Positions 1 to 48,086 of a stretch of DNA of 48,086 nt are shown here, piece after piece. A model generated the notes under the pieces. That model worked only from the letters and a program-made list of their open reading frames with translations, was not told the origin of the DNA and searched no databases. The DNA is from a virus. The stretch is taken from IMG/VR virus record IMGVR_UViG_3300037761_000162, positions 1 through 48,086 of that record; one strand, 5' to 3'. The position numbers were made by a program, and so were the translations under genes. Each line of letters starts with the position of its first letter. The first letter of the stretch is position 1.

Positions 1-127
1 CGGGGTGACCTGATCTACGCCGAAATCGTCACCGCCATCAATGTGGAGCATGATAGCAGGCCGACCGCGTAGCGTGGTTTTCGTTGCCATTTTCTAACCT
101 CCATTTACACATTAGGACAGTAGGGCA
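1..127. repeat. Terminal redundancy, copy 1 (identical to 47960..48086)
   Basis: Read directly: bases 1-127 match the last 127 bases letter for letter. Bases 1-90 (minus strand) duplicate the 5-prime end of CDS 47648..48049. A length of 127 fits a k=127 assembler overlap on a circular contig. Confidence 0.95.
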
Positions 128-3429: not shown

Positions 3430-3903
3430 TCATTGGAACCATTGGTAGTAGGTGTGTCGCTCCGCCGCGCGGAGCAGGATTGGCTGTTCGCCAACCTTGA
3501 TCTGATGCCACCAAAGAAGTAACCGGCCAACCCTACCGTTACCGTCGATAAAGGGATGGATCAGCTCAAACTCGACATGCATGTCTTTGGGGGCATATTG
3601 CGCCGGGTGCTGCATCTTGCGCAGCCAGTCAGCCAGCAGAGGAGGAACGGCCGGCCACTGGGGGCAGATGCGTACTCCTACCCGAACATTCACCCGACGT
3701 GTCCTGCCAGCCTCCTTGCCAAGCTGGCGAGCGGTGATCAGTCGGTGTGTTGTCAGAATGCGTGTCCTGGTCAGGCGACTGAAAGGCGCCAACCATTGCC
3801 AGGCGCCTGCCATGGCGATGTCTGCAACGGGATCGTCGATACCCTCAATAAGCGACGATTCTCGCAAGTGCTCGCGGGTCAGACCCGCGATGTCATCCCC
3901 CAT
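3430..3903 (-). CDS. fic: Fic-domain protein (157 aa), putative AMP-transferase
   Basis: Canonical active-site motif HPFIDGNGRVGR. N-terminal SSLIEG fits the (S/T)xxxE(G/N) auto-inhibition motif. AAGGAGG RBS (complement of 3910-3916). Confidence 0.85.
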   Translation of the reverse strand: MGDDIAGLTREHLRESSLIEGIDDPVADIAMAGAWQWLAPFSRLTRTRILTTHRLITARQLGKEAGRTRRVNVRVGVRICPQWPAVPPLLADWLRKMQHPAQYAPKDMHVEFELIHPFIDGNGRVGRLLLWWHQIKVGEQPILLRAAERHTYYQWFQ

Positions 3904-37276: not shown

Positions 37277-38089
37277 ATGCCGGTGCCTCTGCTGCGTGCA
37301 GCCGGGGCCACGCAAGCTGGCCAACTGCCAGACCCGTTTCCGGGGTTAGCCCGCAGCCGCTACAGGGTGCATTTCAGACGAGGGCAACTGTGCATGCTGG
37401 CTGGCCCACCCGGGGCAGGCAAAACGATGATTGCGCTCATAGCCGTACTGAGGATGGGGGTACCAGCCTTGTACTTCAGCGCCGATAGTGACGAGTGGAC
37501 GATGGCGGCCCGTACGGCGGCTGCTATCACCCGACATCCTGTCCTCAGCATCGAGAAGACGATCCAACACGGCCTGTACAGTGACGAATACGGCCCCGCC
37601 GTGGCAAACCTACCCGCACGCTTCGTTTTCGAGCCCTCTGAGCCGTCAATGGAAGACCTGGCTCACACTCTCACTGCATGGCTGGAAGTCCATGGCACCC
37701 CGCCCCAAATCATCGTTGTCGACAACCTGATGAACCTGCAAGCCAGCAACGCTAACGAATGGGCTGGCATGCGCGAGGCCGTGAAGGACCTGCACTGGCT
37801 AGCTCGCACGTCGAAAGCATGCGTCCTGGTGCTGCACCATACATCGGAGCAGGATAGCTCGCATGTCACGGCTGCCCCACCGAGGCGGGCAATCCAGGGC
37901 AAGGTGGCGCAGTTGCCGGCGCTAATCCTTACCTGCGCCTTCAACTCGCTGACTGGGGAAATGTGGATAGCTGTGGTTAAGAACCGGCACGGCATGTCTG
38001 ATCCCCACGCCCAGGAACCTCTTCGGTGGGCGGCGGATTTCACTTGCTGCCAAATCTTCGACACTCCTTTACCGAGAGGAAACGTGTGA
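37277..38089 (+). CDS. RecA-fold P-loop ATPase (DnaB C-terminal-like / AAA_25-like) (270 aa)
   Basis: Walker A GPPGAGKT. Walker B IIVVDNLMNL. Helicase versus recombinase mediator cannot be decided by eye. Confidence 0.7.
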   Translation: MPVPLLRAAGATQAGQLPDPFPGLARSRYRVHFRRGQLCMLAGPPGAGKTMIALIAVLRMGVPALYFSADSDEWTMAARTAAAITRHPVLSIEKTIQHGLYSDEYGPAVANLPARFVFEPSEPSMEDLAHTLTAWLEVHGTPPQIIVVDNLMNLQASNANEWAGMREAVKDLHWLARTSKACVLVLHHTSEQDSSHVTAAPPRRAIQGKVAQLPALILTCAFNSLTGEMWIAVVKNRHGMSDPHAQEPLRWAADFTCCQIFDTPLPRGNV

Positions 38090-38454
38090 TGCATACCGCC
38101 AAGCATACCTGGCACGAACGGTTCTACCTGTACCGGCAAACCGACAAGACCGGATACTCAGGCACCGGTGTTGTCGCTGAGGGGATTCGATTCGAGGACG
38201 GCGTGTGTGTAGTCCACTGGTGTGTTCCGAATAAGCCGCGGTCGATTGTCATTCACGAGTCGATTGTGGATGTGATGTCGGTTCACGGGCATGACGGGGC
38301 GACCACTGTGATGTGGCTGGACACCACAGAAGAAGTCCCGGACGTAGGCACTGCTTGCGAAGGTCCCTCATGTGACCATAACCTCAAGCTCAACGTGTGT
38401 CAGGTTGATGAGACCTGTGGCGAGGAAGACTCGCCGGCCGAAACGGATGCATGA
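38089..38454 (+). CDS. hypothetical protein (121 aa)
   Basis: ATG at 38089 shares 1 nt with the upstream TGA. Confidence 0.55.
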   Translation: MHTAKHTWHERFYLYRQTDKTGYSGTGVVAEGIRFEDGVCVVHWCVPNKPRSIVIHESIVDVMSVHGHDGATTVMWLDTTEEVPDVGTACEGPSCDHNLKLNVCQVDETCGEEDSPAETDA

Positions 38455-40317: not shown

Positions 40318-40786
40318 GCGGTTTGCCGGGCGGCTGGTTGTGCCGTATTGGAACCGGGCGGGTGTTGTGGCGCTCAAGTTTCGGTGCTTGGAGCCTCACA
40401 CCTGCACCGACCACCCGAAATATGACCAGCCAACAGGTCAGCAGCACCGATTGTTCAACGTCCTCGCGTTAGAGGAGCCCAGTCGCACAATCCACGTGAC
40501 CGAGGGCGAGCTTGACGCGGTTGTCCTGTCCGAGCTGCTTTCTGAACCCGTGGTGGGCGTCCCATCGGCCACTTCTTGGCAACCGCACTGGCCATATCAC
40601 TTTCACGATTTCGACCGCATTGTTGTGTGGGCAGATGGGGACCAGGCAGGACGAAAGATGGGCGCCTCATGGGCAAACAAGGTAAGCGCAGAAGTGGTCG
40701 AACTACCAGACGGTCACGACGTTAACAGCCACTACGTTGCCAACGGCGCGAACTCAGTACGTCAGCTTTACCGGGAGGAATCGTGA
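40142..40786 (+). CDS. DnaG-type primase, TOPRIM part (214 aa)
   Basis: FLNARGITLEVAAKWGIG linker. TOPRIM motifs IHVTEGELDAV and VVWADGDQAGRKM. It is in the +1 frame relative to the zinc-finger ORF, with a 176-nt overlap. Confidence 0.75.
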   Translation: MLTLKLLSRRQSELLARAQSLYASSLTLAAGFLNARGITLEVAAKWGIGVVQSPVLSHERFAGRLVVPYWNRAGVVALKFRCLEPHTCTDHPKYDQPTGQQHRLFNVLALEEPSRTIHVTEGELDAVVLSELLSEPVVGVPSATSWQPHWPYHFHDFDRIVVWADGDQAGRKMGASWANKVSAEVVELPDGHDVNSHYVANGANSVRQLYREES

Positions 40787-41184
40787 CGCGCTTAGCGGAG
40801 GTGGAAAGCGACCAGGACACCGCCCACCGCGACGCGTTCGAACGCCATCTCGACCAACACCAGTGCGGCACCGGCGACTATAAGAGCCCGCACTACATTG
40901 GCGGATTCATAAAATGTCCCGAAGCTATGAGTCTCTGGAAACTTCTGCCCGACGACGACCAGATCATACTGGCCCTTAGGGGGACTGGACCTGTCGTCGA
41001 TGAACACACAAAAGGAGGAGGAGAGGCTGTGATTACCAAGGATTACGGTTGGGTAATAGTCAACGACCCAATCCCCGGACAGGGCTACGAGGACGACGAA
41101 GATGAATGGGCAAACCTTTTTGAACGTGACGACCGGACGGACGTGTACGACCTGTTCGGGAGGCTGCGCGATGAACGTGTATAA
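40783..41184 (+). CDS. acidic hypothetical protein (133 aa)
   Basis: GTG in a GTGA overlap. Confidence 0.5.
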   Translation: MTRLAEVESDQDTAHRDAFERHLDQHQCGTGDYKSPHYIGGFIKCPEAMSLWKLLPDDDQIILALRGTGPVVDEHTKGGGEAVITKDYGWVIVNDPIPGQGYEDDEDEWANLFERDDRTDVYDLFGRLRDERV

Positions 41185-41386
41185 CGACCAATACGGTTTT
41201 CGGTGGGGACTGATCAAGGTTGAACGGACTGGTGCGATCGAACGTCGGAAAGGGGCAGGTAAACATCGCACACTCACTGTCATAATCGGTAAGCCGGGTG
41301 AGGTCCCCTATCACGAAGTAGACATCCACGTTTCTCCCACCGGCCGTAGCGTTCGCATATACCTCGACCACCGGGAGCTGACATGA
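41171..41386 (+). CDS. hypothetical protein (71 aa)
   Basis: ATG at 41171, overlapping the upstream gene by 14 nt. Confidence 0.5.
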   Translation: MNVYNDQYGFRWGLIKVERTGAIERRKGAGKHRTLTVIIGKPGEVPYHEVDIHVSPTGRSVRIYLDHRELT

Positions 41387-41715
41387 CCCAGGTCGAGATT
41401 GAGCAACGGAAGGCTAGGGCTGTCGCGGCTGGTTACGATCCCGACGACGAGTTCTTTTACTCCTTGTACCAGATCGAAAAGCTGTTGCCATATGCCCTGG
41501 ACCCACAAGCGACACCGCCACCCACACTCGCCGATACGCTAATGATTAACCGGCGGCATGCGGGTAAGGCGGAGGGTTACGGCGGGTGGGAGGCTGCCAT
41601 TGCAGACATTCGTAAAGCGATCCAGCAAACCGGAAGTGTCAACCCGCGGGCAATACAGCATTTTCTAGGGGGTGCGAACCCGTATGCTAAAGCTGGCGAT
41701 AGTAGGCAGTCATAA
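41383..41715 (+). CDS. hypothetical protein (110 aa)
   Basis: ATGA overlap. Confidence 0.5.
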   Translation: MTQVEIEQRKARAVAAGYDPDDEFFYSLYQIEKLLPYALDPQATPPPTLADTLMINRRHAGKAEGYGGWEAAIADIRKAIQQTGSVNPRAIQHFLGGANPYAKAGDSRQS

Positions 41716-42073
41716 GCTCACCGCAGAACAAACAGCTACCGCGGTAATCCTGGTAAATGGCATTATCTCAGTCTATCGTGAATCGCTTATGGGTGCCGAT
41801 CTTAGCCCATTAACTATCGTATCCGGCGGAGCTAGCGGAGTTGACACCATAGCTGAACACATCGCCGTCCAGCTTGGCTTGTCAACGGAAATCTACCACC
41901 CTGCCCATCCGCAATGGGAGCCGAAAGGCTACAAGGACCGCAACGTCCGAATAGCAGAATCGTGTGATGAACTCTGGTGTATCCGGGCGCGCGATACCAC
42001 CACGGGCGGCTCGCAGTTTACGGCCAACCATGCTCGTGCGCTCGGGAAAACGGTGCACCAGTGTTGGATTTAA
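41684..42073 (+). CDS. DUF2493 / YspA-type SLOG-domain protein (129 aa)
   Basis: KLAIVGSH..TIVSGGASGVDTIAEHIA..DRNVRIAE..GGSQFTANHARALGKTV matches the GGxxGxD..RN..G SLOG pattern. AT-richer than its flanks by eye. ATG at 41684 or GTG at 41672. Confidence 0.65.
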   Translation: MLKLAIVGSHKLTAEQTATAVILVNGIISVYRESLMGADLSPLTIVSGGASGVDTIAEHIAVQLGLSTEIYHPAHPQWEPKGYKDRNVRIAESCDELWCIRARDTTTGGSQFTANHARALGKTVHQCWI

Positions 42074-42089
42074 GAAAGGAGATAGGTAA

Positions 42090-42227
42090 ATGAGAGACTA
42101 TCGTGGCGCTAAGTGTCGGAGGTGTGGCCTGCCACCCGCGGAGCATAAGCCGAGGCCGCTTCCTTGGCGGGACGAGAAAGGCAGCGAGGTTCCGGTGCAC
42201 GGTTTTGACCTGGCAACAAACAACTGA
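42090..42227 (+). CDS. small CxxC peptide (45 aa), below the ORF-track cutoff
   Basis: Hand translation: MRDYRGAKCRRCGLPPAEHKPRPLPWRDEKGSEVPVHGFDLATNN. AAAGGAGA RBS at 42075-42082. Confidence 0.45.
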   Translation: MRDYRGAKCRRCGLPPAEHKPRPLPWRDEKGSEVPVHGFDLATNN

Positions 42228-42258
42228 TACCATCACAAGCGGAAGGTGGTCAATAGGG

Positions 42259-42711
42259 ATGATCCATCTCACAAGCGGAAACCTGCTTCATGCCGACGTT
42301 GACGCTCTCGTAAACGCCGTTAACACAGTCGGCGTGGCAGGGAAGGGAATCGCGTTACAGTTCCGTTTAGCGTTTCCCGAAAGTCACAAGGCGTATGTTG
42401 CAGCAGCTAAGGCAAGGACGGTGACGCCTGGACAGATGCTGGTAGTTCAAACAGGGGCTGTACCAAAATACATTATCCACTTCCCGACAAAGCGGCATTG
42501 GAAGGACCTAAGTCGGATTGGGGACATTGAGTTGGGGCTCCAGGATCTTGCGCAGGTAATCGCACAGTACGCGATTCGCTCTATTGCGGTGCCGGCGCTA
42601 GGTTGCGGCAATGGGGGACTTGAGTGGTCGCAGGTCCGGCCGCTTGTCGAGAGTGCGCTGGGTTCAGTCGACGCAAAGGTTCTTCTGTTTCAACCGACGG
42701 ACTTAGCATAA
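42259..42711 (+). CDS. stand-alone macrodomain protein, DarG/TARG1-like (150 aa)
   Basis: ATG at 42259 after GGAAGGTGG. Motifs GNLLHADVDALVNAVNTVGVAGKGIALQF, YIIHFPTKRHW and IAVPALGCGNGGLEW. The track ORF N-terminal extension looks non-coding. Confidence 0.8.
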   Translation: MIHLTSGNLLHADVDALVNAVNTVGVAGKGIALQFRLAFPESHKAYVAAAKARTVTPGQMLVVQTGAVPKYIIHFPTKRHWKDLSRIGDIELGLQDLAQVIAQYAIRSIAVPALGCGNGGLEWSQVRPLVESALGSVDAKVLLFQPTDLA

Positions 42712-43047
42712 ATGGAATGTCAGCACTGCGGAAAACCGTTTGACCCGATACGACACCGCTGGCTATGTCCGTGGTGTAAAACTAAAAACACGTGTTGTGA
42801 AGGCACAAAAAAAGGGGGACCACCTCTATGGGTGGTCCCCCTTTTGACTTCATACTCTCTCGGCCGCGACAAGAGTAGCTCGCCGGGCGTAATCCGCCAT
42901 ACTCAGGCCAGCTTGGCTAGCCGCACGCTGGATGGCGGCGGCCTCCTCGACATTGAGCCTCATCTCCAACCGTCGAGCGCCTCGGATATCACCTTGCGGT
43001 GGCCGCCCACTGTTAGCGGACAACCACTCCAAAACCGCCATTCGTAG
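42712..43047 (+). CDS. zinc-ribbon ORF that reads through the terminator (doubtful beyond about 30 aa)
   Basis: ATG directly after the macrodomain stop. MECQHCGKPFDPIRHRWLCPWCK has two CxxC pairs. The frame has no stop before 43047, so it crosses terminator 42807-42845 and overlaps the convergent gene. Confidence 0.25.
   Translation: MECQHCGKPFDPIRHRWLCPWCKTKNTCCEGTKKGGPPLWVVPLLTSYSLGRDKSSSPGVIRHTQASLASRTLDGGGLLDIEPHLQPSSASDITLRWPPTVSGQPLQNRHS
42807..42845. terminator. Bidirectional rho-independent terminator between convergent operons
   Basis: AAAAAAA-GGGGGACCACC-tctatg-GGTGGTCCCCC-TTTT: a perfect 11-bp GC stem with an A tract on one side and a T tract on the other. Confidence 0.85.
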
Positions 43048-43236
43048 CTGGACGTTAACGCGGTGAGTCCGGGAGTCCCGAACCCAGACGCAAATGCGAC
43101 GAAAGTGCCTCCGGCACTCTGTCGAGTGCATTTTCCCGCTTGCGATGAGAAGTGCCCACTGGCGCTCCCGGCTTCCCGCCGGCAAGGCCGGCGCAAGCTT
43201 AGCCGCCAGGTCTCTGATTTCGCTCACGTCGGTCAT
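42850..43236 (-). CDS. ribbon-helix-helix (CopG/MobC-like) domain protein (128 aa)
   Basis: C-terminal RLEMRLNVEEAAAIQRAASQAGLSMADYARRATL. ATG in an ATGA overlap with the upstream stop. GAGAGGAGAG RBS. Confidence 0.55.
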   Translation of the reverse strand: MTDVSEIRDLAAKLAPALPAGSRERQWALLIASGKMHSTECRRHFRRICVWVRDSRTHRVNVQLRMAVLEWLSANSGRPPQGDIRGARRLEMRLNVEEAAAIQRAASQAGLSMADYARRATLVAAERV

Positions 43237-43598
43237 TGCTCTCCTCTCACGTACGCAAGGGCCACTTCTTCCGGAATGCGCCCCTTACCGTGCGGTCCGG
43301 GCTCGGGTAGGCCGAGCGCTTGCCACCTAGCCTCCCACCAACTGCGCAAGCGCTTAGTGTTGCCTGGCCTGCGCGTCTCCCGCAGGCCAATAAGCTCCGT
43401 GACGATGCGAGCGGGTACCCGAGCAACCCCAACGTTCCGGATAAACGGCTGGATCGCCTTTCGGAACGCAACGTAGCTTGCGGGGGACAAGTCCACTAAA
43501 TAGCGGCGGCTATTGACGACCAGCAATAGCTGCCTGCCGTCGTTCACCTCCGTTAACGTGTAATCGTCGATTACGCGTTCACTTACTGTTACAGCCAT
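43233..43598 (-). CDS. Lsr2-like protein, paralogue 2 (121 aa)
   Basis: N-terminus VTVSERVIDDYTL..YLVDLSPASYVAFRKAIQPFI parallels the Lsr2 dimerisation domain. C-terminus LRSWWEARWQALGLP..GKGRIPEEVALAY parallels the RGR DNA-binding motif. GGGGAGGTG RBS. Confidence 0.6.
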   Translation of the reverse strand: MAVTVSERVIDDYTLTEVNDGRQLLLVVNSRRYLVDLSPASYVAFRKAIQPFIRNVGVARVPARIVTELIGLRETRRPGNTKRLRSWWEARWQALGLPEPGPHGKGRIPEEVALAYVRGEQ

Positions 43599-43677
43599 TT
43601 TCTTACACCTCCCCTCTGACCGGCCTTAGCGGCGGATGGGCGGTCAAACCCATCCACCACTAGGACCGGTCAAGCGG

Positions 43678-44298
43678 TCAACTCGTCGCCGGCAAGAGCG
43701 TCGGGTCTTGGGCGTCGAACGCGGCTACAACCCGAGGATTGAGCCGCCCCTTGGCAGGCACCACGAAGCCGTGCAGCTTGCACCACCGGGTCACCTGCTC
43801 CCGGTAGTCGCGACGCTGGGCCGCTGTGAGCCGCTGTGAGCTAGCCTTAGCCGACCGTGCGGTCACGTCCGTTTGCGGCTCAGCGGCCTTCTGAGGGGCA
43901 TTCCCGGGGGTTGCTGAGCCAACCTCCGCGTGGTACGCCGAGATGATGGCCGGGGGGATGCGCCCCCGGTCAGCCACCTGCATACGCTTGCCGCGAGCCC
44001 ACTCCCGGATCGCCCTGTTTTCCGCCCGGCTTTCCGCCCGGTTCGCAGCCTGGCTAGGCGTACGCCCTGGCCCGGTGTGCCCGTTGGGCCTGGTGGACGA
44101 CTGGCGCCGACGTGCGCCGGTGCCACCAGAGTCCCGGCGGCCGGCTACGATGTAGTCAGCCAGCTCGGCCCGCAGAGCCGTAGCGTTCGCCGCAGAAAGG
44201 TCGATCTCGTACTGCACGCCGTCCAGCGAAAACCTCACGGTTTCCGCGGCCTCCGTGCCATCGAGGTCGTCCAACATGCGGACGATTGTCTCGCGCAT
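43678..44298 (-). CDS. lsr2: Lsr2-like nucleoid-associated protein with duplicated DNA-binding domain (206 aa)
   Basis: ATG at 44298 after GAAGGAGG. IVRMLDDLDGTEAAETVRFSLDGVQYEIDLSAANATALRAELADYIVAGRR is the Lsr2 N-domain. AIREWARGKRMQVADRGRIPPAIISAYH is DNA-binding domain 1. VTRWCKLHGFVVPAKGRLNPRVVAAFD is DNA-binding domain 2. Confidence 0.85.
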   Translation of the reverse strand: MRETIVRMLDDLDGTEAAETVRFSLDGVQYEIDLSAANATALRAELADYIVAGRRDSGGTGARRRQSSTRPNGHTGPGRTPSQAANRAESRAENRAIREWARGKRMQVADRGRIPPAIISAYHAEVGSATPGNAPQKAAEPQTDVTARSAKASSQRLTAAQRRDYREQVTRWCKLHGFVVPAKGRLNPRVVAAFDAQDPTLLPATS

Positions 44299-44380
44299 TT
44301 CCTCTACCTCCTTCAAGGCCAGCCGATCTGACTGGTCATAGCGACACACCCGTAATGAAGGGGTGCACCACTAGAACCGT

Positions 44381-44557
44381 TCAGGTGGACTCGGACTGCT
44401 CCGGTAGGATGTACTGCCCCGGGTGTCGCTGCTGCATAAGCCGGATTGCATGCAGTAGTTGGGCCTTACGCTCCAGCCTAGTCACGGTGGATAGCCCGAC
44501 ATCCCGCGCATACTGGCGCAGCTCCCTAATCGTCATCTTCTCCAGCGGTTTCGCCAT
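44381..44557 (-). CDS. Rho_N / SAP (HeH)-like small DNA-binding protein (58 aa)
   Basis: ATG at 44557 after AGGAGGAAC. KMTIRELRQYARDVGLSTVTRLERKAQLLHAI. Confidence 0.5.
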   Translation of the reverse strand: MAKPLEKMTIRELRQYARDVGLSTVTRLERKAQLLHAIRLMQQRHPGQYILPEQSEST

Positions 44558-47647: not shown

Positions 47648-48049
47648 TTATCGCCAACCTCTGGTGTCGCACTCGCACCCGTCTTGCAGGTCGTGACGCG
47701 CGCACATGACCCGGTGGGACGCAAGGTGAATCACGCCACGCGTGATCTCCTTCACCCGCACCACGGTAGCCAGGCCGGTCCCGAGCAGCTCACCCGCCCG
47801 TATGGACGCAAGCAGGCCGCACGGGTAGATGTCCCGTGGCAGGGTGTACGTACGCGTACGGGAGATCACAGGATGATGCCTGCCACCGGCATCGACAATC
47901 GCCCGGATGACAGTCCCATCCCGCGAGACACTCGACACCACCCCGTACGTATACCGGAGCGGGGTGACCTGATCTACGCCGAAATCGTCACCGCCATCAA
48001 TGTGGAGCATGATAGCAGGCCGACCGCGTAGCGTGGTTTTCGTTGCCAT
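47648..48049 (-). CDS. hypothetical protein (133 aa), spans the assembly junction
   Basis: GGAGG RBS (complement of 48057-48061). The N-terminal 30 codons also appear at 1-90. Confidence 0.55.
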   Translation of the reverse strand: MATKTTLRGRPAIMLHIDGGDDFGVDQVTPLRYTYGVVSSVSRDGTVIRAIVDAGGRHHPVISRTRTYTLPRDIYPCGLLASIRAGELLGTGLATVVRVKEITRGVIHLASHRVMCARHDLQDGCECDTRGWR

Positions 48050-48086
48050 TTTCTAACCTCCATTTACACATTAGGACAGTAGGGCA
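47960..48086. repeat. Terminal redundancy, copy 2 (identical to 1..127)
   Basis: Read directly. Confidence 0.95.

What the first reader, a model, noticed from the sequence alone, without database searches (positions are those of the whole stretch)
41684..42849. Candidate NAD/ADP-ribose counter-defence cassette: SLOG protein, 45-aa CxxC peptide, DarG-like free macrodomain and Zn-ribbon ORF
Seen in sequence: the last genes of the rightward early operon form a compact cassette that ends at a strong bidirectional terminator. The cassette is visibly AT-richer than the replication genes upstream. It encodes (a) a 129-aa DUF2493/YspA-type SLOG protein (SGGASGVDTIAEHIA..RNVRIAE..GGSQFTANHARALGK). (b) An unannotated 45-aa CxxC peptide with a strong RBS. 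(c) A 150-aa stand-alone macrodomain whose motifs (ALVNAVNTVGVAGKGIALQF, HFPTKRHW, PALGCGNGGLEW) match the DarG/TARG1-type clade as I remember it. (d) A short Zn-ribbon ORF. Established knowledge: macrodomains bind or hydrolyse ADP-ribose adducts. The DarG macrodomain reverses DarT ADP-ribosylation of ssDNA, and DarT-DarG systems have been reported to protect bacteria from phage. SLOG domains sense nucleotide-derived ligands, for example ThsA of Thoeris binding a cyclic ADP-ribose isomer. Phages are known to encode sponges for such signals. Inference: the phage may carry a free antitoxin-like macrodomain to erase ADP-ribose marks from its DNA or proteins. The SLOG protein may bind or degrade an NAD-derived alarm signal. 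I do not know of this pairing being described as an anti-defence unit.
Basis: partly seen in the sequence, partly recalled or inferred. Interest (0 to 1): 0.75.

Follow-up and report, generated by a model that had tools for sequence, protein, structure and literature searches.

The report
Orphan DarG-type macrodomain in an actinophage
A metagenomic actinobacterial phage carries a stand-alone copy of the DarG antitoxin macrodomain, most likely to strip host DarT ADP-ribose marks off its DNA as the recently described phage protein AdfM does, and the neighbouring SLOG gene is an unrelated backbone gene, not its partner.

Summary
Four ORFs (SLOG 41684-42073, 45-aa ORF 42090-42227, macrodomain 42259-42711, Zn-ribbon ORF from 42712) close a rightward replication operon at a strong bidirectional hairpin terminator. 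They lie in the lowest-GC stretch of the genome.

The macrodomain is clearly DarG-type. It scores 227 bits against the NCBIfam and PADLOC DarG models. Its model superimposes on the T. aquaticus DarG macrodomain at TM 0.96. All six residues tested by mutagenesis in that protein are kept. It lacks DarG's C-terminal domain, and I found no DarT among ORFs of at least 100 aa. This matches AdfM (PhiKZ gp104), a phage macrodomain shown in 2026 to remove DarT2 marks from DNA.

The "cassette" is not a unit. Sister phage lineages keep gp110, SLOG and the Zn-ribbon in the same place but have no macrodomain. The 45-aa ORF plus macrodomain (42074-42711) is therefore an insertion. Only 1 of 81 other SLOG loci has a DarG-like macrodomain within 5 kb, and 0 of 19 macrodomain loci have this SLOG.

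The SLOG is a viral DUF2493/YAcAr-type protein of unknown ligand. SLOG-Macro neighbourhoods in phages were already described in 2022. Verdict: a new member of a known kind, of modest interest.

The parts
41383..41715 (+). gp110, a 110-aa ORF of unknown function that overlaps the SLOG start by 32 nt. It is part of the lineage-conserved backbone.
   Evidence: 74% and 67-69% amino-acid identity at the same position in L028-L030 and L031/L032. No hit in Pfam, PHROGs or GenBank phages.
41684..42073 (+). 129-aa stand-alone SLOG-fold protein of the viral DUF2493/YAcAr-DprA-like group.
   Evidence: Pfam DNA_processg_A 29.9 bits (cut-off 29.6, partial coverage); YAcAr 18.6 and cpYpsA 19.4 bits, both below cut-off. 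phrog_289. AF2 pLDDT 96.5. Foldseek PDB: ShosA, YpsA and TM1055 at TM about 0.7. BFVD top hits are viral DUF2493/YAcAr proteins. The family has 2446 representatives.
42090..42227 (+). 45-aa ORF with one CxxC and a strong AAGGAG ribosome-binding site. It is an ORFan and its coding status is unproven.
   Evidence: Called as a gene in all sister contigs. No homologue in 5.8 billion proteins or in GenBank phages.
42259..42711 (+). 150-aa orphan DarG-type macrodomain (AdfM-like), a predicted ADP-ribosyl-thymidine DNA glycohydrolase.
   Evidence: NCBIfam antitoxin_DarG 226.7 bits over profile positions 1-150 of 338. PADLOC DarG 227 bits. PDB 5m31 and 5m3i at E about 1e-40. AF2 pLDDT 94.8. TM 0.96 and rmsd 0.7 A to 5m3e. 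N22, K29, K78, H80, W81 and G117 conserved.
42074..42711 (+). Segment (45-aa ORF plus macrodomain) that is present here but absent between SLOG and the Zn-ribbon in sister lineages. It is read as an inserted accessory module.
   Evidence: Synteny of L028-L032.
42712..43047 (+). Zn-ribbon ORF. The conserved core is aa 1-32 (42712-42807): CxxC-x12-CxxC-x5-CCEG. In this window it has no stop before the terminator and reads on to 43047. It is 38 aa in L021 and L022.
   Evidence: 69% and 52% amino-acid identity to ORFs downstream of SLOG in two other lineages. Substitutions are biased to the third codon position (18 of 34) and all six Cys are kept.
42807..42845 (.). Bidirectional intrinsic terminator: 7 A, an 11-bp G+C-rich stem with a 6-nt loop (42814-42841), then 4 T.
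   Evidence: Folds at -36 and -35 kcal/mol, z -7.0 and -6.2 on the two strands. Sister-genome variation is confined to the loop.
42850..43236 (-). Convergent NikA-like/ribbon-helix-helix gene that ends at the same terminator (context only).
   Evidence: Pfam NikA-like 30.4 bits. Syntenic in L028 and L029.

Best explanation
The region is the 3' end of the phage's rightward replication operon. It is a composite, not one co-evolved cassette.

Backbone genes. gp110, a DUF2493/YAcAr-type SLOG protein and a small four-cysteine Zn-ribbon protein are conserved in this order in the phage's sister lineages.

Insertion. Between SLOG and the Zn-ribbon, this phage alone carries a 638-bp segment holding a 45-aa ORFan and a 150-aa macrodomain.

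The macrodomain. It is an orphan copy of the catalytic domain of DarG, the antitoxin of DarTG2 systems. It lacks DarG's DarT-binding C-terminal domain, and I found no DarT among ORFs of at least 100 aa. Most likely it acts as PhiKZ AdfM does. When a DarTG2-carrying host releases DarT2 during infection and ADP-ribosylates thymidines in TNTC motifs of single-stranded phage DNA, the phage enzyme hydrolyses the ribose-thymine bond through its catalytic lysine (K78, equivalent to T. aquaticus DarG K80), and replication resumes.

What is shown and what is inferred. Shown here: family, fold, catalytic residues, orphan status, and the insertion relative to relatives. Inferred: the enzymatic activity, DNA as the substrate, and the benefit in vivo.

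The SLOG protein. It is a nucleotide-binding Rossmannoid of unknown ligand that belongs to the replication-module backbone and is functionally independent of the macrodomain. My best guess is that it binds or processes a nucleotide or ssDNA in the replication or nucleotide-metabolism context.
For: Macrodomain identity:
- Pfam Macro 78 bits.
- NCBIfam DarG 226.7 bits, against 29 bits or less for every other macrodomain family. PADLOC DarG 227 bits.
- 48-50% identity to the solved T. aquaticus and M. tuberculosis DarG macrodomains.
- Model pLDDT 94.8; TM 0.96 and rmsd 0.7 A to 5m3e; TARG1 next at TM 0.83.
- All six residues whose mutation was tested in TaqDarG (N22, K29, K80, H82, W83, G119; PMC5179494) are conserved.

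Origin in DarTG:
- The closest IMG/VR relatives, L001 and L002, are full-length DarG proteins of 357 and 348 aa directly downstream of DarT (PF14487, E 1e-53 and 1e-51).

Orphan status:
- The profile match stops at position 150 of 338.
- No DarT or ADP-ribosyltransferase among all ORFs of at least 100 aa.

Precedent:
- The DarG macrodomain alone rescues DarT toxicity (PMC5179494).
- AdfM, the stand-alone macrodomain of PhiKZ, removes DarT2 ADP-ribose from DNA and is needed on DarTG2 hosts (PMC13309987). It is 30% identical to this protein, E 2e-24.
- NADAR-type orphan antitoxins do the same against DarTG1 (PMC11825919).

Composite structure:
- L028-L030 (SLOG 60% identical) and L031/L032 (53%) keep gp110, SLOG and the Zn-ribbon but lack the macrodomain.
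- 0 of 19 macrodomain loci have this SLOG. 1 of 81 SLOG loci has a DarG-like macrodomain within 5 kb.
- Neighbours of SLOG homologues are replication and nucleotide-metabolism genes.
Against:
- The host is unknown, so I cannot show that it carries DarTG2.
- The nearest homologues (55-67% identity) are stand-alone macrodomains on cellular or mobile-element contigs with no DarT nearby. This stand-alone subfamily might act on a different ADP-ribosylated substrate.
- The NCBIfam score is below the equivalog cut-off (226.7 against 250), as expected for a single domain.
- Physical adjacency to a SLOG gene fits the published idea of SLOG-Macro cooperation (PMC9503650). My neighbourhood test used a DarG-type profile and a 5-kb flank, so it does not exclude genome-wide co-occurrence with other macrodomain clades.
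Confidence: 0.65

Rival explanations
1. One reading: SLOG and the macrodomain (with the two small Cys proteins) form one NAD/ADP-ribose counter-defence unit. The SLOG binds or cleaves a cADPR-type alarm signal and the macrodomain processes the ADP-ribose product or adduct.
For: The two genes lie about 190 nt apart in one operon. Iyer et al. 2022 report SLOG-Macro/NADAR fusions, neighbourhoods and above-chance genome co-occurrence in DNA viruses, and predict that viral YpsA-clade SLOGs degrade cADPR-like signals (PMC9503650). One other locus, L073, has a YAcAr SLOG and a macrodomain 1.4 kb apart. The ThsA SLOG is among the structural matches at TM 0.62.
Against: Sister lineages keep the SLOG at the same locus without any macrodomain. 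Co-occurrence within 5-6 kb is 1 of 81 and 0 of 19. In L073 the two genes are separated by sugar-modification genes. SLOG neighbours are replication and nucleotide-metabolism genes, not NAD/ADPr genes. No other NAD/ADPr domain (Nudix, NADAR, Sir2, TIR, ART) was found in the genome. The macrodomain is of the DNA-specific DarG type, not a small-molecule-processing clade.
Confidence: 0.12
2. The macrodomain acts on a substrate other than DarT2-modified DNA. Candidates are ADP-ribosylated host or phage proteins, ADP-ribosylated RNA, or small molecules such as O-acetyl-ADP-ribose or ADP-ribose-1''-phosphate. On this reading it counters a different ADP-ribosyltransferase defence or serves a metabolic role.
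For: The related TARG1 acts on both protein-glutamate and DNA-thymidine ADP-ribose (titles and abstracts; structural match at TM 0.83). The closest homologues are stand-alone macrodomains with no DarT nearby. Source databases label them O-acetyl-ADP-ribose deacetylase, and homologues in GenBank phage records are annotated 'phosphatase' or 'Appr-1-p processing'.
Against: Scores against O-acetyl-ADP-ribose deacetylase and ADP-ribose-binding families are 29 bits or less, against 227 bits for DarG. W81, equivalent to TaqDarG W83 and proposed to stack on the thymine, and all other tested DarG residues are kept. AdfM, a more divergent stand-alone relative, is active on DarT2-modified DNA. The database labels are automatic names, not tests.
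Confidence: 0.15
3. The macrodomain is the antitoxin half of a phage-borne DarTG module, so it protects the phage or lysogen from the phage's own DarT and not from a host system.
For: Full-length DarT-DarG operons do occur on contigs classed as viral (L001, L002).
Against: No DarT (PF14487 or a PADLOC DarT model) and no other ADP-ribosyltransferase was found among 112 ORFs of at least 100 aa in the genome. The DarT-binding C-terminal domain is absent.
Confidence: 0.02

Closest known systems
AdfM (anti-DarT factor macro; PhiKZ gp104), Morgan et al., Cell Rep 2026 (PMC13309987)
   Same: A phage-encoded, stand-alone, DarG2-like macrodomain of about 150-165 aa with no DarT partner. It shares the catalytic Asn and Lys and the GNGGL loop. 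Detectable homology: 30% identity, E 2e-24.
   Different: AdfM belongs to nucleus-forming jumbo phages of Pseudomonas and Erwinia and is imported into the phage nucleus. It has a roughly 9-residue insertion and lacks K29. The protein here sits in a 48-kb siphovirus-like actinophage. It is much closer to cellular DarG (48-50% identity) and has not been tested.
DarG antitoxin of DarTG2 (T. aquaticus and M. tuberculosis; PDB 5m3e, 5m31, 5m3i; NCBIfam NF048014)
   Same: The macrodomain is near-identical in fold (TM 0.96, rmsd 0.7 A) and keeps every residue shown to matter for DNA de-ADP-ribosylation.
   Different: It has no C-terminal DarT-binding domain and no adjacent DarT, it is phage-borne, and its score falls below the equivalog cut-off (226.7 against 250).
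AdfN, orphan DarG1-like NADAR proteins of T-even and other phages (PMC11825919)
   Same: The same strategy: a phage keeps only the enzymatic antitoxin activity to erase DarT marks from its DNA.
   Different: An unrelated fold (NADAR, not macrodomain) and a different target, guanine-linked ADP-ribose placed by DarT1.
Viral DUF2493/YAcAr (YpsA-clade) SLOG proteins and their SLOG-Macro/NADAR neighbourhoods (Iyer, Burroughs, Anantharaman, Aravind 2022, PMC9503650)
   Same: The SLOG protein here is a stand-alone viral SLOG whose best structural matches are viral DUF2493/YAcAr proteins, and in this genome it lies next to a macrodomain gene.
   Different: In this phage lineage the adjacency is not conserved. 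The conserved neighbours are gp110 and a Zn-ribbon mini-protein. No ligand or activity has been shown for any member of this small-phage subfamily as far as I could find.

Membership tests
Macro domain (Pfam PF01661) | Score above the Pfam gathering threshold over the whole domain | tested here: met
   78.1 bits against a cut-off of 22; residues 18-128 match profile positions 1-116 of 118.
DarG/TARG1-type macrodomain clade | Best sequence and structure match to DarG macrodomains, not to MacroD, viral nsP3 or other macrodomain clades | tested here: met
   NCBIfam DarG 226.7 bits against 29 bits or less for others. PDB 5m31 and 5m3i at E about 1e-40. Foldseek TM 0.96 to 5m3e, then TARG1 at 0.83.
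DarG/TARG1-type macrodomain clade | Catalytic lysine (TaqDarG K80 / TARG1 K84) plus N22, K29, H82, W83 and G119 | tested here: met
   K78, N22, K29, H80, W81 and G117 align to these residues. Their roles are taken from PMC5179494.
DarG antitoxin of DarTG2 (NCBIfam NF048014 equivalog) | Two-domain architecture (macrodomain plus C-terminal DarT-binding domain) and a score of at least 250 bits | tested here: not met
   The protein ends at residue 150, the match covers profile positions 1-150 of 338, and the score is 226.7 bits, below 250.
DarG antitoxin of DarTG2 | Encoded next to a DarT toxin gene | tested here: not met
   No DarT among 112 ORFs of at least 100 aa. By contrast, L001 and L002 have DarT directly upstream.
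AdfM-like phage orphan macrodomain antitoxins | Phage-encoded, stand-alone, DarG2-like macrodomain | tested here: met
   The window is a complete phage genome with portal, capsid and tail genes. The ORF is a single domain. It is 30% identical to PhiKZ gp104.
AdfM-like phage orphan macrodomain antitoxins | Removes DarT2-placed ADP-ribose from DNA and protects the phage on DarTG2 hosts | not testable with these tools
   This needs enzyme assays and plaque assays. The host is unknown.
SLOG superfamily | SLOG Rossmannoid fold with the GGxxGxD-type motif after strand 2 and the C-terminal G-x-x-T motif | tested here: met
   AF2 pLDDT 96.5. Foldseek matches ShosA, YpsA and the LOG-like TM1055 at TM 0.69-0.72, and ThsA at 0.62. 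G48, G49, D54, G109 and T113 are invariant or nearly invariant across 70 homologues.
YAcAr / DUF2493 (Pfam PF10686) | Score above the Pfam gathering threshold | tested here: inconclusive
   The window protein scores 18.6 bits against a cut-off of 28.2. However, 49 of 70 family members hit YAcAr (best E 7e-9), and the top BFVD structural matches are DUF2493/YAcAr proteins.
DprA (TIGR00732 / Pfam DNA_processg_A) | Full-length DprA Rossmann domain above threshold | tested here: not met
   TIGR00732 scores 21 bits against a cut-off of 191. Pfam scores 29.9 against 29.6 but covers only profile positions 47-100 of 212.
ThsA-type cADPR-sensing SLOG or phage signal sponge/degrader | Binds or degrades an NAD-derived signalling molecule | not testable with these tools
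   Only fold-level similarity is available. There is no NAD/ADPr context among neighbours of homologues.
Conserved SLOG-Macro gene neighbourhood (PMC9503650) | The adjacency recurs in related and unrelated genomes | tested here: not met
   0 of 6 loci from sister lineages, 1 of 75 more distant SLOG loci, and 0 of 19 macrodomain loci.
Zinc-ribbon mini-protein | Two CxxC pairs about 12 residues apart, conserved under purifying selection | tested here: met
   The CxxC-x12-CxxC-x5-CCEG pattern is kept in three lineages. Identity is 65% at nucleotide level and 69% at protein level, and 18 of 34 differences fall at the third codon position.
Intrinsic (rho-independent) bidirectional terminator | Stable G+C-rich hairpin followed by a U-run on both strands | tested here: met
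   There are 7 U after the stem on the - strand but only 4 on the + strand.

The most novel reading that the evidence does not exclude
The conserved trio of gp110, DUF2493-type SLOG and CCEG Zn-ribbon at the end of the replication operon is itself an undescribed nucleotide-signal or modified-nucleotide processing module. On this reading the locus serves as a landing pad for accessory counter-defence genes, so the DarG-type macrodomain inserted there cooperates with the SLOG, for example by clearing ADP-ribose species that the SLOG senses or produces.
Probability: 0.08. Interest if true: 0.6.

Novelty: new member of a known kind. Interest (0 to 1): 0.3.

Why it matters
If the prediction holds, orphan DarG-type antitoxins would extend from nucleus-forming jumbo phages of Gram-negative bacteria to an ordinary 48-kb actinobacterial phage. 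The protein here is far closer to mycobacterial and Thermus DarG than AdfM is. DarTG is present in M. tuberculosis and other actinobacteria, so such genes bear on the host range of actinophages. The gene would also be a compact reagent for reversing thymidine ADP-ribosylation.

The negative result is useful too. Adjacency of a SLOG and a macrodomain in one genome is not evidence of a functional pair. The small viral DUF2493 SLOG family, with about 2400 cluster representatives, remains without a known ligand.

Tried and rejected
- Near-identity DNA search of the region and of 24 kb of structural genes against GenBank phages: no match. The portal protein is only about 42% identical to those of Streptomyces phages, so no annotated relative exists.
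- The consensus terminator and promoter scan missed the real hairpin. The one sigma-70-like site it reported, 42205-42233 upstream of the macrodomain, is no more than chance predicts.
- SLOG as a single query in IMG/VR found nothing. The 70-sequence alignment was too diverse for pattern search. The 4-sequence alignment worked.
- tblastn of gp110, the Zn-ribbon core and the 45-aa ORF against GenBank phages gave nothing significant.
- The 45-aa ORF against 5.8 billion proteins found only itself.
- Codon-position GC content does not discriminate the coding frame for the two short ORFs.
- Rfam found no RNA family in 40500-44500.
- A Zn-ribbon downstream of SLOG is not a general feature. It occurs only in this lineage and one other group, 6 of 44 loci.
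- The literature search for 'YAcAr/DUF2493' returned only caiman papers because of prefix matching.
- The genome-collection scan gave only distant SLOG relatives, mostly in Clostridia MAGs, so it gave no clue to the host.
- A phage-borne DarTG module was rejected because no DarT is present.
- The local Pfam copy did not reproduce the precomputed Acb5 hit for 38089-38451. The likely reason is that the model is newer than the local copy.
Full report
**What the window is.** The 48,086-base window is a complete, circularly assembled metagenomic phage genome. Its last ~127 bases repeat its first ~127. It is 100% identical to a Logan contig and about 99% identical to a 47,970-bp JGI contig. It has no near-identical relative in GenBank phages. 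Its portal protein is about 42% identical to those of Streptomyces siphoviruses. It carries Lsr2-like genes typical of actinobacterial phages.

The finding lies at the end of a rightward operon. That operon encodes a PD-(D/E)XK nuclease, an L5 gp49-like protein, a ligase-like protein, a DnaB/RecA-like ATPase and a two-part DnaG-type primase.

**Check of the observation.** All four ORFs exist with the quoted peptide strings:

| Feature | Coordinates | Length |
|---|---|---|
| SLOG | 41684-42073 | 129 aa |
| 45-aa ORF (one CxxC, AAGGAG 8 nt upstream) | 42090-42227 | 45 aa |
| Macrodomain | 42259-42711 | 150 aa |
| Zn-ribbon ORF (starts right after the macrodomain stop) | from 42712 | see below |

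- The terminator is real and strong. An 11-bp G+C-rich stem (42814-42841) is flanked by A7 and T4. It folds at -36 and -35 kcal/mol on the two strands, z -7.0 and -6.2.
- The convergent NikA-like gene stops at 42850-42852.
- The cassette is 54.2% GC against 59.6% for the genome. It falls in the lowest 0.1% of equal-sized windows.

Two corrections are needed.

- In this window the Zn-ribbon ORF has no stop before the terminator and runs to 43047. In two sister contigs about 99.7% identical to the window (L021, L022), a 1-nt deletion and two substitutions, all in the hairpin loop, create a stop after residue 38.
- The 45-aa ORF has no homologue anywhere. It rests only on its ribosome-binding site and on gene-caller output.

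**The macrodomain.**

- It passes Pfam Macro at 78 bits.
- It scores 226.7 bits against NCBIfam antitoxin_DarG over profile positions 1-150 of 338, and 227 bits against PADLOC DarG. Every other macrodomain family scores 29 bits or less.
- The best solved relatives are the DarG macrodomains of T. aquaticus and M. tuberculosis, at E about 1e-40 and 48-50% identity.
- A high-confidence model (pLDDT 94.8) superimposes on 5m3e at TM 0.96 and rmsd 0.7 A. Human TARG1 follows at TM 0.83.
- Jankevicius et al. 2016 tested TaqDarG N22, K29, K80, H82, W83 and G119. They found K80 essential, and showed that the macrodomain alone rescues DarT toxicity (PMC5179494). All six residues are conserved here as N22, K29, K78, H80, W81 and G117.
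- The closest IMG/VR relatives, L001 and L002, are full-length DarG proteins directly downstream of DarT.
- This genome has neither the DarG C-terminal domain nor any DarT or ADP-ribosyltransferase among ORFs of at least 100 aa.
- Its nearest homologues (55-67% identity) are stand-alone proteins of 150-170 aa. In the three neighbourhoods examined, on long contigs that look cellular or mobile-element-derived, there was no DarT and no SLOG.

**What is already known.** A phage-encoded stand-alone DarG2-like macrodomain has been characterised. AdfM (PhiKZ gp104) removes DarT2-placed ADP-ribose from DNA, neutralises DarT2 toxicity, and is needed for growth on DarTG2 hosts (PMC13309987). The protein here is 30% identical to AdfM, E 2e-24. 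The parallel NADAR case against DarTG1, AdfN, was published in 2025 (PMC11825919). About 290 GenBank phage records encode DarG-like macrodomains.

**The SLOG protein.**

- Pfam gives a borderline, partial DNA_processg_A hit and sub-threshold YAcAr (formerly DUF2493) and cpYpsA hits. PHROGs places it in phrog_289.
- A profile search found 2446 cluster representatives, mostly stand-alone proteins of 115-140 aa. Of 70 aligned members, 67 hit DNA_processg_A and 49 hit YAcAr.
- The model (pLDDT 96.5) matches ShosA, YpsA and the LOG-like TM1055 at TM about 0.7, and ThsA at 0.62.
- In BFVD the top matches are viral DUF2493/YAcAr proteins from phages and giant viruses.
The ligand is unknown and cannot be tested here.

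**Is it a cassette?** The answer is no.

- Relatives with 60% (L028-L030) and 53% (L031/L032) identical SLOG proteins keep the same layout: primase, small genes, gp110, SLOG, then the convergent operon. They have no macrodomain.
- The Zn-ribbon ORF is conserved in both of these lineages, downstream of SLOG and ahead of the convergent genes. Amino-acid identity is 69% and 52%, all six Cys and the CCEG motif are kept, and 18 of 34 nucleotide differences fall at third codon positions. It is therefore a real gene and part of the backbone.
- It follows that 42074-42711 (the 45-aa ORF plus the macrodomain) is an insertion between SLOG and the Zn-ribbon. L028-L030 carry a different 49-aa Cys-rich ORF in that slot.
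- More widely, 0 of 19 DarG-like macrodomain loci contain this SLOG. Only 1 of 81 SLOG loci outside this phage (L073) has a DarG-profile macrodomain within 5 kb, and there glycosyltransferase and aminotransferase genes separate the two.
- Genes flanking SLOG homologues are dominated by replication and nucleotide-metabolism functions.
- The pairing idea itself was published in 2022 (PMC9503650).

**Mechanism and confidence.** I commit to the following at 0.65 confidence. The macrodomain is an AdfM-like orphan antitoxin that hydrolyses ADP-ribosyl-thymidine on phage ssDNA through K78, defeating host DarTG2. It was acquired as an accessory insertion. The SLOG and Zn-ribbon are independent backbone genes.

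The rivals are:

- a coupled SLOG-macrodomain NAD/ADPr unit (0.12);
- a different macrodomain substrate (0.15);
- a phage-borne DarTG module (0.02).

**Verdict.** This is a new, untested member of a known kind. The macrodomain call is solid and the 'cassette' reading is not supported. Interest is modest at 0.3. What remains interesting is the actinophage setting, the closeness to mycobacterial DarG, and the still-unknown function of the conserved SLOG/Zn-ribbon pair.

Noticed in passing
window 38089-38454 (+): A 121-aa gene in the same rightward operon carries a precomputed Pfam hit to Acb5 (PF26761). Acb5 is a family of phage enzymes that cleave 3'3'-cGAMP to defeat CBASS and is reported as enriched in actinophages (bioRxiv 10.1101/2025.07.12.664507). 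The hit recurs in the sister lineages L030 and L031. The local Pfam copy did not reproduce it.
   Followed up: partly
window 42712-43047 (+) and 42814-42841: The conserved Zn-ribbon ORF has no in-frame stop before the terminator in 4 of 6 near-identical genomes. It would be translated through the hairpin into the antisense of the convergent gene. In L021 and L022, loop mutations create a stop after residue 38. This could be translation-termination interplay, or tolerated non-stop translation.
   Followed up: partly
window 3433-3903 (-): A 157-aa Fic/DOC-domain protein (Pfam 51 bits). The whole-genome PADLOC scan also returned a SoFic hit (E 1.4e-14), presumably this gene, but I did not map it. 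It lies in the leftward operon and could be a host-modifying or defence-related AMPylase.
   Followed up: no
window 1-127 and 47960-48086: The ends of the window repeat each other by about 127 bases. Sister contigs run across the junction, so the window is a circular assembly of a complete genome of about 47.96 kb.
   Followed up: yes
L028 1894-2043, same slot as window 42090-42227: Sister lineage L028-L030 carries an unrelated 49-aa Cys-rich ORF (CxC...CxxC) between SLOG and the Zn-ribbon, where this phage has the 45-aa ORF plus the macrodomain. In that lineage the Zn-ribbon is in frame with an 84-aa domain, giving a 117-aa ORF.
   Followed up: partly
window 42243/42244: A 3-nt (AGG) indel distinguishes near-identical genomes within the Shine-Dalgarno region upstream of the macrodomain start. 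It may tune translation of the macrodomain.
   Followed up: no
window 43236-43598 (-) and 43681-44349 (-): Two Lsr2-like genes sit in the convergent operon, next to a NikA-like ribbon-helix-helix gene. One has only the dimerisation domain (sub-threshold). The other has a full Lsr2 with its DNA-binding domain.
   Followed up: no
GenBank Streptomyces phages Quantum, Kradal, Satis and others (hits H6-H13): In these 185-200-kb Streptomyces phages the DarG-like macrodomain match (41-45% identity) falls inside genes annotated 'ADP-ribosyltransferase'. This is either a macrodomain-ART fusion or a mis-annotation.
   Followed up: no
L110 2949-3479 and the P0010 context: In two of three neighbourhoods examined for the closest stand-alone DarG-like macrodomains, a SocA_Panacea-domain gene lies 1-2 kb upstream on the same strand, in settings that look like mobile elements or defence islands.
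   Followed up: no
window, ORFs not localised: The whole-genome PADLOC scan also gave hits to PDC-S04 (E 6e-15), HicA-like (E 1e-5) and PDC-S24 (E 1.5e-5). I did not map these to specific ORFs.
   Followed up: no
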